Of a stretch of 46,484 nt of DNA, positions 31,790-43,098 are shown piece after piece. This DNA comes from a virus. Lineage: Duplodnaviria; Caudoviricetes. Position 1 is the first letter of the stretch. The number at the start of each line of letters is the position of its first letter. The stretch covers positions 1-46,484 of IMG/VR virus record IMGVR_UViG_3300012667_000478. One strand, 5' to 3'. The position numbers and the translations under genes were made by a program. Below the pieces are notes generated by a model. The model was not told where the DNA came from. It saw nothing but the letters and a program-made list of their open reading frames with translations, and did not search any database.

Positions 31790-32536
31790 TATGCTAATGT
31801 TTTTAAGGTTAATAATTCTTTTTTGATAAAGTTATGTACTTTAACATGGTCACTTAAATGATTATTAATTGTGCTTGTTTTTAAACTTTCTGTAATATTA
31901 TTATAAAAATCCCAAACAGTGTCGTTTGTAAAATCTTTTGAATAATATAACTCATTCTTGATAATATCTAACTGAGTAGATGTTATCATTTTTTCTTCAA
32001 TATACATTCTACCTAACAATTCAGAACAAGTCTTTTTTGTTATATCTCTTTCTTTCATTAAGTTTCTATCAGCAATGATAGAGTTAAATGAAATATCAAA
32101 TTCATTGATAGAATCTATAATTTTATTTTTAACAATTGAGCTAGCTGCACCAGTATGTTTTCTAATTAAAGAAATATCTCCTGATATTACTCCATTTTCA
32201 CAAATCCATACTTGACCACCTATTGCTAATCCTGCAGACATAGTCTTGTTATAACTATTTCTAAAAGCCATCATAATACCTAACTCACTATCAGTGTGTT
32301 CTATACCATAATAACCTATTAATTTAGTTCCTTCATGATTAGCTTTGTAATTAGAAGTTTTAATCTTAAAACCTTTAATATCCAGTTGTTCTTTAATACC
32401 TTCTATTATTTCCTTATGTGAAATAGGACTATAAGTTAAAGTTTTATTAGGAACTGGTACTTCTAATAGTTCAGTTTCACTAAAATTGTTCATTATTAAA
32501 TGTTTCATTATACTAATGTTTTTAATGTTAATAATT
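31786..32536. repeat. 32-nt direct repeat (30/32 identical) flanking the DUF932-like gene
   Basis: tcattatgctaatgtttttaaggttaataatt (31786-31817) vs tcattatactaatgtttttaatgttaataatt (32505-32536). Confidence 0.85.
31789..32508 (-). CDS. DUF932/DUF945-like protein
   Basis: TYSPISH, FRNSYNKT, ICENG, RKHT, WDFYNNITESLK. Confidence 0.75.
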   Translation of the reverse strand: MKHLIMNNFSETELLEVPVPNKTLTYSPISHKEIIEGIKEQLDIKGFKIKTSNYKANHEGTKLIGYYGIEHTDSELGIMMAFRNSYNKTMSAGLAIGGQVWICENGVISGDISLIRKHTGAASSIVKNKIIDSINEFDISFNSIIADRNLMKERDITKKTCSELLGRMYIEEKMITSTQLDIIKNELYYSKDFTNDTVWDFYNNITESLKTSTINNHLSDHVKVHNFIKKELLTLKTLA

Positions 32537-33245
32537 GTTCAGGAGTAATACTTAAATCTCTCTTCCAAACTTTAAGTATCTTTAATACTACTTCAAATTG
32601 TTCAATAGTATCATCAAAATACTTAGTTCCTTTATCAGACTTATAAAAATTATCAGTCAAAATAATTTCTTCTATAATTTCAATATACTTATCAGTTACA
32701 GATGTTAAATCATAACCTCTTTGTGTATATTTAACTACTCTTTCAAATTGTCTTAAAAGACGTTTAGTACCCCAAAAGTTACATTTGTAAAATGTACCAT
32801 TCCATTTATTCCAAGTACCTACTTTACCTGTAGATTCTCTCAATGAAATAGTTTTACCTGTTTTAATATCATAAGCTGTTGTTATAATATCTAAATCAAA
32901 ATTACTAACTACATCAAAACAAGTCTTGTTAAACTTTTTAAATATAACATTTACATCTACACATAAATTATATTTAAATTTGATTGTAATTAATCCTAAT
33001 GAATCTAACGAAGATTTATCTTCATTTGTAAATTCTTCAAACTTATGTTTTTCTAATGGATCTAAGATATTAAACATTGGATTATAATACATAAAATAAA
33101 GTAGTTTTGTAAAACTAGCTTTGTCATAAGTAAATAAGTCAATGTCTTGTCCTTCAAAGTAATCTAAAAGACAACTACCTGTGATACATCCATTAATCTC
33201 TTGTTTTTTTAATAATTCAATAGCACTATCAATTTGTTCTTTCAT
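32508..33245 (-). CDS. Pol-beta-superfamily nucleotidyltransferase (CCA-adding/poly(A)-like head domain)
   Basis: ITGS...QDIDLF, VDVNV, VSNFDL, ERVVKYTQRGY. Confidence 0.7.
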   Translation of the reverse strand: MKEQIDSAIELLKKQEINGCITGSCLLDYFEGQDIDLFTYDKASFTKLLYFMYYNPMFNILDPLEKHKFEEFTNEDKSSLDSLGLITIKFKYNLCVDVNVIFKKFNKTCFDVVSNFDLDIITTAYDIKTGKTISLRESTGKVGTWNKWNGTFYKCNFWGTKRLLRQFERVVKYTQRGYDLTSVTDKYIEIIEEIILTDNFYKSDKGTKYFDDTIEQFEVVLKILKVWKRDLSITPEQLLTLKTLV

Positions 33246-33887: not shown

Positions 33888-34829
33888 TTATTTGTTTATT
33901 GTGTTAATCCAGTTCTTTACTTTAATAGTAGTCTTAGGTTCAAATGATCTTGCATAACCAGTTACATTATCACTGTTTTTGTCAGTATGTAGTGAATATA
34001 ATGTTTGAACTTTAAAGTTACATTTATCTCCTCTACTTGCATAGTATCCAGGATTATCATTATCACCAAAAGAAATAACAGTGTTATACTCATTATGACT
34101 TTTTATAATTTGATTAAACATTTCTCCTTCATTACCTCCACCATAATCTCCTACTGCACCTACAATATCAGTATTAGGTACGTCATTATAATCTATCAAA
34201 TAACTTTTACAACCTGTTAAGATTACATCAGCATAGAATTTTTTAGACATTAACTTACCTAAGTTGACAATAGTTAATACTACTGACTTAGGCATAGATG
34301 ATGAAATATCTAGTATTAATAGATTCTTCATATTATGTTTAATATTACCATAACCAATGTTCATTCCTAATTGTTTATTAAATGCTGTAGGATCAAAAGT
34401 AACTTCATCAATGATGTTAGTTTCAATACTAGCTTTAATATCTTCTAACCATACTGGTAAGATTTTTAACTGAGATAATCTATCAAAGTCAACAAAATAT
34501 TGATCTTCAATAAAATCATCTACTTTTAATTCATATCTTCCATTACCACCTTCATAATATTCACCACCTGAATTTAATTTGTAATTTCTAATACTGTTAG
34601 AATTATATCCAATGTTTCTTAAACAATCTAACCATTTAATTGGTATACCTGTGTTTAAACAAGATTTATATAACACTTGAAATTCTAAGAATACAGTTAT
34701 AAAACTTAATTCTTCTTTGCTACCTATAATATAAGGTAATCCTTTGGGTAGATTCTTAAAATCTTCCTCATTCTCAACTAGAAATATTGTTGGTATTTCT
34801 ACTTTCTTACTTGTGATTTTTGTTATCAT
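33888..34829 (-). CDS. vWA-domain protein
   Basis: MIDAS motif ILDISSSM, then GGGN and ISFGD; adjacent to a MoxR-like ATPase. Confidence 0.75.
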   Translation of the reverse strand: MITKITSKKVEIPTIFLVENEEDFKNLPKGLPYIIGSKEELSFITVFLEFQVLYKSCLNTGIPIKWLDCLRNIGYNSNSIRNYKLNSGGEYYEGGNGRYELKVDDFIEDQYFVDFDRLSQLKILPVWLEDIKASIETNIIDEVTFDPTAFNKQLGMNIGYGNIKHNMKNLLILDISSSMPKSVVLTIVNLGKLMSKKFYADVILTGCKSYLIDYNDVPNTDIVGAVGDYGGGNEGEMFNQIIKSHNEYNTVISFGDNDNPGYYASRGDKCNFKVQTLYSLHTDKNSDNVTGYARSFEPKTTIKVKNWINTINK

Positions 34830-35817
34830 TTTGTACTATTAGTTTTAATAAATTTATATATTCAACTTCATCTCCTTTATTCACATTAATTGATTTAATA
34901 TCTGCTGGAGATACTATTTTCTGACTAAGAAAAGGAATTAATAAATGTCCATAAGGACTTTCTAATTCACAACCAATTTGGTTTATTGCTTTCTCAACAC
35001 TTCTTGGAGTAACATAATCCCAAGTATCTTGATCAAACTTTTCTTTACTAATTAATGTACACAAATGTTTAGAAATACTATTAGGCATACCATATTTATC
35101 TTTCATTAAAGCTTGATACTCTTCAGAATCAAATTTTAAATCATACCTAATAAATCTTTCCTTAATTTGAGGAGTTAAATTAATCAATCCTTGTGGATTA
35201 CTTGCAGACACTATCATTACATCAGCTAACTTTTTACCTGAAGGCAACATTCTATCTTCTAATAAGTTTAATACAGCATCTAAAGTTTGCTTTAGAGTAC
35301 CATTAAATACCTCATCAAAAAATAATACATCACCATCTTTTAAAGAATTTAATTCATGACTATCATAAACTAATAATTTACCACTTTTAACATCAGGCAT
35401 AACCATACCCACTACTTCATTTGGCATTCTTTGACTTAGTGTTATCTTAACCATGTTAACACCTTTTTCTTCTACAAACTTTTTAATAATTGTAGTTTTA
35501 CCTATCCCTGGATTTGACATGAATAAAGGTACAGTTTTTTTCCTTAATATCCTATTATCATAAGTCTTATTTAAGACATCAAGCATTTCTTTTTCCATTC
35601 CTGTTTTATTGTTTATTTTATTATTTGTTAATTCTAACCATTCATCAAATGTATATATTTTAAAACTGTTACTTTTAGCATATTCATAATTAGATCTAGT
35701 TTTATCTTTCCAATATATATAACAACTATCATCATTATATCTCATACCAAAAGTATAATTTATGTACTTTTCAACAAATTTCCATTCTTCTAATGAAGTA
35801 CAATGCACACATTCCAT
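34807..35817 (-). CDS. MoxR/dynein-related AAA+ ATPase (may start at internal Met ~35598)
   Basis: SNPGIGKT, LFFDE, SASN, KERF, TPRS. Confidence 0.82.
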   Translation of the reverse strand: MECVHCTSLEEWKFVEKYINYTFGMRYNDDSCYIYWKDKTRSNYEYAKSNSFKIYTFDEWLELTNNKINNKTGMEKEMLDVLNKTYDNRILRKKTVPLFMSNPGIGKTTIIKKFVEEKGVNMVKITLSQRMPNEVVGMVMPDVKSGKLLVYDSHELNSLKDGDVLFFDEVFNGTLKQTLDAVLNLLEDRMLPSGKKLADVMIVSASNPQGLINLTPQIKERFIRYDLKFDSEEYQALMKDKYGMPNSISKHLCTLISKEKFDQDTWDYVTPRSVEKAINQIGCELESPYGHLLIPFLSQKIVSPADIKSINVNKGDEVEYINLLKLIVQNDNKNHK

Positions 35818-39503: not shown

Positions 39504-39816
39504 ATTGTTTCTCTGTTTTAATCATCATGTTTAATAATTCATTAGATAATGTTTCAGCTTTAACTAATGCTTTGTTAGCTAATCTAGTTTCAATTATTAC
39601 ATGTTTATGATTTTTAATGTTAGCTCTACATTTAATAATATAGTTAACAGCATTAACATATTCTGATTTATCATACCCATTAAGTAATCCTTGTGGATAT
39701 TTTTTAATAAATAATAATATACCATTTAATTCCCAATTGCTTAACCTACTTAAAACAGTTGGTTTACTTTTGCAAAAATATAACATTTTGCAATACTTGT
39801 CTAATAATTTGTTCAT
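39484..39816 (-). CDS. Hypothetical protein
   Basis: 110-aa ORF with an A-rich leader. Confidence 0.6.
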   Translation of the reverse strand: MNKLLDKYCKMLYFCKSKPTVLSRLSNWELNGILLFIKKYPQGLLNGYDKSEYVNAVNYIIKCRANIKNHKHVIIETRLANKALVKAETLSNELLNMMIKTEKQYDNTNK

Positions 39817-39839
39817 TTTGTGATTGTTTTTTGTTAATT

Positions 39840-39870
39840 AAAAACCACCTAGGACTTTCCTAAGTGGTTT
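39840..39870 (-). terminator. Terminator hairpin just downstream of the tRNA-like element
   Basis: Minus strand AAACCACT-TAGGA-aag-TCCTA-GGTGGTTT-TT. Confidence 0.7.
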
Positions 39871-39875
39871 GTTAG

Positions 39876-40015
39876 TAGTCAGGATAGGATTCGAACCTAT
39901 ATGTTTGGATTCATTTACGTTGCCTATACCCCTTAGTACATTTCAACTAATATGATAGGTCGTACCAAACTCTTGTTCCCATGCAATAGCGTCTAACCAA
40001 TAACGCCACCTGACT
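39876..40015 (-). tRNA. 140-nt tRNA-like RNA with degenerate anticodon arm and giant variable-arm hairpin
   Basis: Acceptor AGTCAGG/CCTGACT; TG; D-arm GCG-TTATTGGTTAGA-CGC; T-arm ATAGG-TTCGAAT-CCTAT; ~85 nt between the D and T arms. Confidence 0.7.
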
Positions 40016-40019
40016 ATTT

Positions 40020-40190
40020 GATGTCTTTCCATCAGTCATAACTTAACTTGCAGTTAACCGTGTTCCCTTTTCTTCAGAGACCAATAGCACCCGTTTATTC
40101 TCTGGGTACACCGAGTACAACTTTTACAACATACTACTAATAGTATGAATGGGACATTCTGTTGTCCTGCTTACCCCACCAGCAGAATTT
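40020..40190 (-). ncRNA. Putative structured RNA upstream of the tRNA-like element
   Basis: GC-enriched, ORF-free region with stems CTGCT/AGCAG, GGACA/TGTCC, CATACTA/TAGTATG, GTACCC/GGGTGC, TTAACT/AGTTAA and TGATG/CATCA. Confidence 0.45.
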
Positions 40191-40303
40191 TAAAATCATA
40201 CTAATATCCGGTCGCTTAGGTTGATATAAATATCATTAACCTGTTCAAAAGAACATTTCAAGGCTCTCGGTTTTATTGAGCCACTTCAATTAGTATGATT
40301 TTA
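40191..40303 (-). ncRNA. Putative four-way-junction RNA
   Basis: A perfect 15-bp closing stem TAAAATCATACTAAT/ATTAGTATGATTTTA encloses GGCTC/GAGCC, GTTC/GAAC and AGGTT/AACCT. Confidence 0.55.
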
Positions 40304-40309
40304 TATTGT

Positions 40310-40621
40310 TTAATCAATTAATTCTAAATTACTTTGTTCAATTAATTGCATAATATCTACTTTACCTAATTCAGTACATTCTTTCATTAGTTCTATTAGT
40401 TGATTTAAACCATCTTGAGTAAAAGCAAATCTATCTAATCTATAACTTGTATATTCTAATGATTTAGTTTGTACTTCATTTAAAGTAACACCTTGAATTC
40501 CTTGATTAACATGGTAATATACATAATTTATAGTATATTTTGTTCCTTCAATAATCCAGTTTTCAGGTAGTATTTCATTAGGTTTATTCTTATCATTTAT
40601 ACATAAACAAGGTACATTCAT
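40310..40621 (-). CDS. Conserved hypothetical protein
   Basis: CINDKNKP...WIIEGTKYT...YRLDRF. Confidence 0.7.
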   Translation of the reverse strand: MNVPCLCINDKNKPNEILPENWIIEGTKYTINYVYYHVNQGIQGVTLNEVQTKSLEYTSYRLDRFAFTQDGLNQLIELMKECTELGKVDIMQLIEQSNLELID

Positions 40622-42899: not shown

Positions 42900-43024
42900 T
42901 TTGTTTAGTTTTAGATTGTTAATAATATTTTAAAATAAAGGTTTAACCAACTAACCTCAAAGGAGTGTTTTTACAGAACACTTAAACTGTATTAGGGTAA
43001 ACTATCACATAAACCTAATATAAG

Positions 43025-43098
43025 GTGTGATAGTAGGAATCGAACCTACCATCCCCTGATTAATCGTCAGGTGCTCATACCAATAAGCTTTATCACAC
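43025..43098 (-). tRNA. Atypical tRNA-Asn-like gene, anticodon ATT
   Basis: Cloverleaf: TGTGATA/TATCACA; GCTT/GAGC; CCTGA-CGATTAA-TCAGG; GTAGG-TTCGATT-CCTAC. It has A8 and G33, and CCA is not encoded. Confidence 0.75.

What the first reader, a model, noticed from the sequence alone, without database searches (positions are those of the whole stretch)
39876..40015. tRNA scaffold carrying a ~70-nt hairpin in place of a normal variable arm
Seen: perfect acceptor, D and T arms. The anticodon arm is reduced to about TTG-catgggaa-CAA. It is followed by a long nested hairpin (GTTTGG/CCAAAC, TACG/CGTA, CCTAT/ATAGG, TTAG/CTAA), and a terminator follows directly. The insert is not at the canonical 37/38 intron position and is too small for a self-splicing intron. 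Inference: a non-decoding tRNA mimic in which the elbow and acceptor give processing and stability while the insert is a payload (decoy for anticodon nucleases or tRNA-sensing defences, guide, or antisense RNA).
Basis: partly seen in the sequence, partly recalled or inferred. Interest (0 to 1): 0.78.

Follow-up and report, generated by a model that had tools for sequence, protein, structure and literature searches.

The report
Phage tRNA shells carrying swappable RNAs
This phage gene is a tRNA-shaped frame with a conserved folded RNA insert where the decoding arm should be; many other phages carry the same frame with different inserts and share whole units between unrelated genomes, so it likely serves as a natural scaffold that host enzymes would cut out and stabilise to display the insert, whose target is unknown.

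Summary
Confirmed, on the minus strand (39876-40015). It is not a one-off. Its 3' end pattern hits about 1,800 IMG/VR stretches (estimated from 5/64 scanned) but only 27 among 185,579 species genomes. 227 unique elements keep acceptor, D and T arms (tRNA-Leu-like, A15:U48, A73) around cores falling into 192 clusters; 3 of 206 have a normal anticodon arm. The window's whole unit recurs at 83-100% identity in 14 unrelated flank contexts, never without a shell. Both shell and core show compensatory changes (8 of 40 pairs, 3 in the core), and two other core families behave alike (21/21 and 14/14 in shells). Best reading: a natural tRNA scaffold, processed by host enzymes, displaying exchangeable structured RNA domains, with the constant ends acting as recombination joints. 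Processing, expression and target are untested; cores are on average no more stable than flanks; antisense, intron, peptide and pseudogene readings failed. This scan met similar tRNA-like elements before on other DNA (two notes), read as gene-shuffling joints; those notes as shown do not describe conserved cores. Ten literature searches found no description.

The parts
39876..40015 (-). Whole tRNA-shell RNA gene (140 nt, no encoded CCA)
   Evidence: 140/140 identical copy in L204 in other flanks
40009..40015 (-). Acceptor stem 5' strand
   Evidence: 7/7 pairs; 4 of 7 pairs show two-sided change among 13 variants
39989..40006 (-). D arm of tRNA-Leu type (G18G19, A15; this copy has U14)
   Evidence: family D arm scores closest to the four tRNA-Leu among 49 Bacteroidota tRNAs
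39971..39988 (-). Short hairpin in the anticodon-arm position, 3-4 bp with 8-nt loop
   Evidence: U-A/C-G covariation at columns 30:43 (7 vs 6 variants)
39903..39970 (-). 68-nt multi-stem core hairpin in the variable-arm position (predicted payload domain)
   Evidence: fold; two-sided changes at 59:91 and 60:90, G-U tolerated at 50:109 and 51:108, but 60:90 is G.G in 7 of 13
39884..39900 (-). T arm with canonical T loop, preceded by U48
   Evidence: 5/5 pairs; compensatory C-G to U-A against the family consensus
39876..39883 (-). Acceptor 3' strand and discriminator A73; followed by C
   Evidence: C follows in 97% of family members with a trailer
39840..39870 (-). Terminator-like hairpin directly downstream
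   Evidence: fold; present in relatives L001-L003, L005, L006; not listed by the scan
40019..40034 (-). Small leader hairpin with a GAAAGA loop just 5' of the shell
   Evidence: 20-nt pattern found in 101 viral loci: before shells, before tRNAs and inside tmRNA-like genes; role unknown
40035..40300 (-). Upstream non-coding block with further hairpins, likely co-transcribed
   Evidence: fold z -4.45 for 39810-40310; 181 nt shared at 96.7% with L003, where a different tRNA-like RNA follows

Best explanation
It is a phage non-coding RNA gene made of a constant tRNA-Leu-like shell (acceptor, D and T arms) around a conserved structured core, and it likely works as a natural tRNA scaffold: host RNase P and 3'-end enzymes would cut it out as a stable RNA of about 140 nt, and the shell would protect and display the core, which probably acts by shape on a host protein (anti-defence or host takeover). 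Shown: the shell, the family, the conserved and covarying cores, and movement of whole units between unrelated phages. Inferred: exchange by homologous recombination in the short conserved ends, processing, CCA addition and possible leucylation. Least supported step: a protein target for the core; none was identified.
For: Family: 137 loci from 5 of 64 parts of IMG/VR, about 1,800 estimated; 27 stretches among 185,579 species genomes, all MAGs, 15 labelled Bacteroidota. 227 unique elements, 52-196 nt; 223 cores in 192 clusters; 3 of 206 have a canonical anticodon arm. Shell selected as RNA: 205 of 227 have 7/7 acceptor pairs, 219 U8 (positions 1-10 were partly filtered for); 174 of 227 A15 with U48, both unfiltered; wholly different but paired acceptors around the same core in L192 and L200. 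Leader bias U-1 79%, A-2 73% resembles canonical phage tRNAs, 72% and 60%. Core selected and bound to the shell: 24 of 25 loci have the complete shell (one is cut by the contig end), 14 flank contexts; 8 of 40 pairs change on both sides, 3 in the core, 0/500 shuffles; 18 of 88 core columns vary against 23 of 53 shell columns. Second core 21 of 21 in shells; third core 14 of 14, 82% mean identity, 4 core pairs with two-sided change. Mobility: in 16.5 kb of window DNA the element is the only long match to five other phage records; the same upstream block leads to three different tRNA-like RNAs (window, L391, L364); shells also occur in four gp23-bearing T4-like phages of 174-271 kb. Engineered precedent: PMC3753655 (passages).
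Against: Cores are on average no more stable than 3' flanks (mean z -0.55, n=173, vs -0.42, n=171; p=0.17; the flanks are themselves ncRNA-rich). Nine of 50 paired and 9 of 38 unpaired core columns vary, so paired sites are barely more conserved. Helices 52-55 and 66-70 never vary and one pair is G.G in 7 of 13 variants; the search patterns fixed parts of those helices. High identity may reflect recent spread rather than selection, and the shuffle control ignores relatedness. No target found; no Rfam match for any core in 40 loci. The window copy lacks A14, part of the U8-A14 pair that PMC2377443 (abstract) calls critical for leucylation. The closest complete relative has no shell of this sequence type, so it is dispensable or replaceable.
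Confidence: 0.5

Rival explanations
1. Shell-only decoy: the acceptor and elbow are the working part, soaking up host factors that attack or sense tRNA ends or elbows, or supplying Leu-charged RNA. The cores are stable fillers that remove a cleavable anticodon loop and only need to fold.
For: 192 core clusters in one shell; LeuRS-type features in 157 of 227 (A14, A15, U48, A73); tRNAs are frequent defence targets (PMC12445682 abstract; PMC10264068, PMC11464382, PMC12851939 in listing only); cores only weakly structured on average.
Against: Individual cores persist across different acceptors and many genomes with invariant loops and covarying stems; 53 of 167 loci carry two or more different cores, which is unneeded if the core is filler.
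Confidence: 0.2
2. Processing punctuation and recombination joint: the shell marks RNase P/Z cut sites in phage transcripts and offers homology for shuffling neighbouring genes (PeSL-like); the core is a passenger.
For: Homology ends at the shell ends; order and content differ between close relatives L007 and L008/L009; none of 53 multi-shell loci has shells on both strands; two earlier AI notes read such elements this way (leads only, one marked 'part of it fell').
Against: Here the shell is single and followed at once by a terminator-like hairpin, with no small gene to punctuate; passengers would not be expected to covary. The joint role is compatible with the best explanation and is included in it.
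Confidence: 0.15
3. Selfish mobile RNA (SINE-like), copied by reverse transcription into new sites.
For: Sharp boundaries at the predicted mature ends; a 100% identical copy in unrelated flanks.
Against: No excess of target-site duplication (mean shared word 4.45 vs 4.33 shuffled; 7 vs 3.95 with 8 nt or more; n=224); no reverse transcriptase (PF00078) in 5 of 5 records, 4 of them at least 90% complete; relatives show replacement by other tRNA-like RNAs rather than clean empty sites; 1-5 copies per genome.
Confidence: 0.06
4. A decoding tRNA after all: a +1 frameshift-type tRNA with an 8-nt loop and giant variable arm, or a precursor whose insert is spliced out.
For: The 8-nt loop holds U-GGG/GGU-AA on a covarying stem; one excision (columns 34-79) gives an anticodon-like arm in 6 of 13 variants.
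Against: That excision fails in the window and 6 other variants and leaves a 24-nt variable region; the would-be anticodon switches between Pro and Thr on a Leu-type body; 3 of 206 family members have a canonical arm; no intron family matched.
Confidence: 0.04
5. Antisense or guide RNA against host or phage mRNA.
For: Core positions 6-26 match the antisense of the 5' coding part of a clpP-like gene (name recalled from the peptide) in 8 related genomes of 401, best E 0.028 per genome.
Against: About a dozen hits of that strength are expected by chance in 401 genomes, and the eight are one gene in kin; common variants change three of the matched bases; best self-match in the window is 11 nt, E 0.71; the core is mostly paired.
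Confidence: 0.03
6. Decaying tRNA pseudogene with a random insertion.
For: U14 in this copy; dispensable in the closest relative.
Against: Compensatory changes in acceptor, T stem and core; 98.3% of cells paired.
Confidence: 0.02

Closest known systems
Engineered 'tRNA scaffold' (Ponchon and colleagues; PMC3753655, passages read)
   Same: Acceptor, D and T arms kept; a structured RNA sits in place of the anticodon arm; host enzymes process and protect it.
   Different: Artificial. Here the design is natural, the insert takes both anticodon and variable positions, and hundreds of inserts circulate among phages. Processing here is only inferred.
Bacterial Y RNAs (YrlA; PMC4201824, abstract)
   Same: Non-decoding RNA with a tRNA-like domain joined to a second functional domain; also found in phages.
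   Different: Y RNAs have a Ro60-binding stem and lie beside Ro60; no YrlA match to the element and no TROVE gene in this 31%-complete record.
tmRNA
   Same: tRNA-like ends enclosing a large non-tRNA domain; a tmRNA precedes the four-element array in L007.
   Different: No G3:U70 (0 of 227), a D stem is present, no tag frame under selection, much shorter.
Bacterial tRNA-Leu (class II)
   Same: D-arm sequence, A15:U48, A73, hairpin before the T arm.
   Different: No canonical anticodon arm; variable region 70 nt; A1-U72 acceptor unlike the four host tRNA-Leu seen.
Allo-tRNAs (Mukai et al., PMC5389517, passages)
   Same: Irregular tRNAs with long variable arms and diverse anticodons, some in phages.
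   Different: Those have 8/4 or 9/3 acceptor branches, G73/U73 and working anticodon arms; this is 7/5 with A73.
PeSL cassettes of T4-type phages (PMC2839356, abstract)
   Same: Short conserved sequences in variable regions that mediate modular exchange.
   Different: PeSLs are promoter/terminator DNA units; here the joint is a tRNA fold and the exchanged part lies inside the RNA.
UG27 ncRNA arrays (bioRxiv 10.64898/2026.09.22.753630, abstract and passages); GOLLD/ROOL (PMC12286853, passages)
   Same: Phage-borne structured RNAs; UG27 units are variable, gained and lost; GOLLD/ROOL lie near tRNA islands.
   Different: UG27 needs its reverse transcriptase (none in 5 records) and the paper never uses 'tRNA-like'; GOLLD/ROOL are far larger and gave no Rfam match.

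Membership tests
Canonical tRNA-Leu | 7-bp acceptor, 5-bp T stem, T loop, U8, G18G19 | tested here: met
Canonical tRNA-Leu | A73 and A15:U48 | tested here: met
   window copy has both; 174 of 227 have A15/U48
Canonical tRNA-Leu | A14 (U8-A14 pair) | tested here: not met
   window copy has U14; the other 12 aligned variants have A
Canonical tRNA-Leu | 5-bp anticodon stem, 7-nt loop, Leu anticodon | tested here: not met
   8-nt loop on 3-4 bp; 3 of 206 family members canonical
Canonical tRNA-Leu | Aminoacylation by LeuRS | not testable with these tools
   needs a charging assay
Intron-containing tRNA | Excision restores a canonical tRNA in all homologues; group I/II or bulge-helix-bulge features | tested here: not met
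   (none in window, best 6 of 13); no intron match
tmRNA | G3:U70 and Rfam/ARAGORN tmRNA match | tested here: not met
tmRNA | Internal reading frame under coding selection | tested here: not met
   the 11-codon frame in this core varies mostly non-synonymously (read); frames in 35 of 173 cores vs 33.4 shuffled
Y RNA (YrlA) | Match to the YrlA model | tested here: not met
   one weak hit (28.5 vs 69 bits) in L034 lay outside the shells of this type
Y RNA (YrlA) | Adjacent Ro60/TROVE gene | tested here: inconclusive
   none in the record, which is 31% complete
Allo-tRNA | 8/4 or 9/3 acceptor branch | tested here: not met
   7/5
PeSL cassette | Strong sigma70-like promoter plus terminator in one conserved unit | tested here: not met
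   no promoter-like site within the element; Bacteroidota promoters are not covered by the scan
PeSL cassette | Exchange of modules at the conserved unit | tested here: met
   (pattern of exchange; recombination itself is inferred)
SINE-like retroelement | Target-site duplications and a reverse transcriptase | tested here: not met

The most novel reading that the evidence does not exclude
Bacteroidota-infecting phages, crAss-like and T4-like alike, share a pool of hundreds of RNA 'aptamers' mounted on one tRNA-Leu-like chassis; each core inhibits or hijacks a specific host protein such as a defence sensor or nuclease, and phages trade them by recombination at the chassis ends, an RNA counterpart of anti-defence gene islands.
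Probability: 0.3. Interest if true: 0.93.

Novelty: categorically new. Interest (0 to 1): 0.76.

Why it matters
If true, nature invented the tRNA scaffold used in biotechnology and uses it as a modular display platform, opening a large untapped library of small structured phage RNAs that can be cloned and screened one by one against defence systems. It bears on the open question of why phages carry so many tRNA genes: some are not decoding tRNAs. Whatever the function, there is a practical effect: 49 of 143 ARAGORN calls in 137 shell-selected loci were these shells, given scattered and probably false anticodons, so phage tRNA inventories and codon-compensation analyses for these phages may be contaminated.

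Tried and rejected
Annotated phage collection (50,697 records): only short T-arm or tRNA matches for the window region and for a short family member; no cultured phage with the element was seen in the rows listed (60 of 744 shown). First viral pattern with both ends and a long gap: 0 hits. Relaxed ARAGORN in a script gave noise. Expression: 9 of 12 listed runs hold small shares; laid contigs show one 114-nt contig over the core in run X1 (depth 2.4), one in X9, and shells with other cores in four runs, but contigs cannot show ends, strand or level and DNA carry-over is possible, so no verdict. Antisense to clpP, 11-codon peptide, intron excision, target-site duplication, reverse transcriptase, Ro60: see rivals. 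Anticodon-loop mimics inside cores: 2 observed vs 3.35 shuffled. Profile search for distant relatives of the window core in 392 held loci: 27 strong hits, nothing intermediate. Rfam on 40 loci: no family for any core. Neighbouring small ORFs have no Pfam match and one has an uninformative PHROG match. L196 (20-nt D-loop insert) was left out of the 13-sequence alignment. Literature: ten searches found no description; the library lacks most subscription papers; 3 of 9 supplement files of PMC10690425 could not be searched and could list some cores; bioRxiv supplements are closed.

Full report
Observation. The feature is on the minus strand, 40015 to 39876. Rfam matches it to the tRNA model at 31.7 bits with a 68-nt unmodelled middle; ARAGORN does not call it. 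The fold gives a 7-bp acceptor, a D arm, a weak hairpin in the anticodon position, a 68-nt multi-stem hairpin and a 5-bp T arm (z -2.04). A 13-bp hairpin with a U-rich tail follows, though the terminator scan missed it. The record is a 31%-complete virus contig with a 4,315-aa ORF, DNA polymerase, primase and helicases; I call it crAss-like from recalled genome layout, not from a formal test.

Close relatives. Of 16 loci fetched with the polymerase, seven (L003-L005, L007-L010) carry one to four tRNA-like elements at the same position, with matching ends and unrelated middles, 67-146 nt long. L007 and L008/L009 share two elements but differ in order and in the others. The upstream block of the window leads to three different tRNA-like RNAs in the window, L391 (the L003-type element) and L364. 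The closest complete relative has no shell of this sequence type but other degenerate tRNA-like RNAs at the locus. The site is thus an exchange hot spot and the element is accessory.

The family. A 22-nt pattern of the 3' end gave 137 loci from 5 of 64 parts of IMG/VR, about 1,800 stretches estimated, against 27 stretches in 185,579 species genomes, all metagenome-assembled, 15 labelled Bacteroidota; these may be misbinned phage contigs or prophages. From the loci then held I extracted 253 elements, 227 unique, 52-196 nt, median 103; 11 3' ends had no 5' partner, 7 of them at a locus edge. My filter favoured the first ten bases, so their conservation is partly circular; unfiltered positions are also conserved (A14 85%, A15 87%, G18 86%, U48 84%, C after the discriminator 97%). 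223 cores form 192 clusters, 170 of them singletons. Only 3 of 206 elements with a D arm have a canonical anticodon arm. Shells occur in four T4-like phages of 174-271 kb and in a distant relative of the window's phage. 53 of 167 loci carry two or more different elements, never on both strands.

What the shell mimics. Among 49 tRNAs from two Bacteroidota genomes, the four tRNA-Leu are closest in the D arm (scores 15-17 vs 13 or less; the set lacked tRNA-Ile). A15 with U48 occurs in 174 of 227 shells and in 9 of 49 host tRNAs, all four Leu among them; 157 of 227 have A14, A15, U48 and A73 together; none has G3:U70; 5 encode CCA. PMC2377443 (abstract) reports that LeuRS needs A73, U8-A14, G18-U55, G19-C56 and variable-arm orientation but not the anticodon arm, so leucylation is plausible for the family but doubtful for this U14 copy. 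The leader bias (U-1, A-2, A-4) resembles that of canonical phage tRNAs; that this fits RNase P preference is recalled.

The window's own core. Three core-directed searches gave 26 loci, several from the same contigs; of 25 examined with the window, 24 have the whole shell and one is cut by its contig end; they form 14 unique sequences in 14 flank contexts. L204 is identical over 140 nt in unrelated flanks. Against five of these records, 16.5 kb of window DNA matches at length only at the element. Two copies have quite different, fully paired acceptors (L192, L200) and one has a 20-nt insert in the D loop (L196). In 13 aligned variants (83-94% identical to the window), 98.3% of cells pair, and 8 of 40 pairs change on both sides, 3 of them in the core, with 0 of 500 shuffles reaching this. 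Caveats: relatedness inflates that test, two core helices never vary, the patterns fixed part of them, and one pair is G.G in 7 of 13. Two other cores were tested the same way: 21 of 21 and 14 of 14 lie in shells, and the third shows four core pairs with two-sided change at 82% mean identity (gaps make that part of the alignment uncertain). Against a strongly folded payload in general: core stability does not exceed that of 3' flanks. Eight cores contain T-loop-like hairpins against 0.6 in shuffles, hinting that some derive from other tRNA-like RNAs.

Mechanism. Shown: constant shell, hundreds of cores, cores conserved as units and always in a shell, units shared by unrelated phages, boundaries at the shell ends. 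Inferred: transcription with the upstream non-coding block, release by RNase P and 3' trimming with CCA addition, stabilisation as in the engineered tRNA scaffold (PMC3753655, passages), and exchange by recombination in the roughly 25-nt conserved ends. Most speculative: that the core binds a host protein. I favour that because base-pairing targets were not found, coding was not supported, loops are conserved, and the gain-loss pattern resembles that of anti-defence genes (recalled). Confidence 0.5; the shell-only decoy (0.2) and joint/punctuation (0.15) readings remain open. RNA-library contigs contain the core and many other shells but cannot show expression.

Known systems. It fails defining tests for tRNA-Leu, intron-containing tRNA, tmRNA, allo-tRNA, YrlA and SINE-like elements (see membership table). 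It works most like the engineered scaffold, and shares modular exchange with PeSL cassettes (PMC2839356, abstract) and UG27 arrays (abstract and passages). Other papers seen: PMC10690425 passages and 6 of 9 supplement files, no hit; PMC5389517, PMC7609411, PMC6409571, PMC12286853 passages; PMC12445682 and PMC4201824 abstracts. Ten searches found no description of the family. Two earlier notes of this scan (e1-5957254, e1-5410567) describe tRNA-like elements with constant ends in large phages as joints for gene shuffling; they share short words with my family loci, so they probably concern the same shell, but as shown they say nothing of conserved cores. I did not test their small-gene claims.

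Verdict. Real, selected at the RNA level, and part of a large undescribed family of modular tRNA-shell RNAs; function untested. tRNA mimicry as such is known; a constant tRNA chassis with an exchangeable library of conserved RNA domains is not matched by any system I could find. Interest 0.76.

Noticed in passing
window 43024-43097 (-): tRNA called Asn(ATT) by ARAGORN has G at position 33, and its homologues in L003 and L005 have a 6-nt loop; probably a second non-decoding tRNA-like RNA with a conserved body.
   Followed up: no
window 40019-40034 (-); L292-L392: A small hairpin with a GAAAGA loop occurs before shells and tRNAs in some phages and, by eye, inside tmRNA-like genes of many others, just before the tag frame.
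   Followed up: partly
window 40035-40300 (-): Further conserved hairpins; 42 nt identical to the closest complete relative; an RNA-library contig of depth 38.7 lies on 40060-40110 in run X3.
   Followed up: partly
window 32508-33245 (-): 245-aa ORF with a nucleotidyltransferase-like GS..DID motif (recalled); no Pfam or PHROG hit. It could bear on RNA end repair.
   Followed up: no
L007 5901-6289 and 6353-6974: Phage tmRNA directly followed by an array of four different tRNA-like elements.
   Followed up: partly
L291 873-1130: Group I intron (78.3 bits) in the non-coding region of the closest complete relative, upstream of a tmRNA-like 3' end.
   Followed up: no
L262-L282: Second core family: by eye the strand in the anticodon position can pair with the loop of the variable-arm hairpin, a possible pseudoknot; nearly invariant in 21 loci.
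   Followed up: partly
L196, L126, L167, L266: Some shells carry hairpin inserts in the D loop as well, and the same D-loop insert occurs with different cores.
   Followed up: no
window 33888-35817 (-): MoxR-type AAA ATPase gene next to a 313-aa ORF without a family match, possibly its vWA partner (pairing recalled).
   Followed up: no
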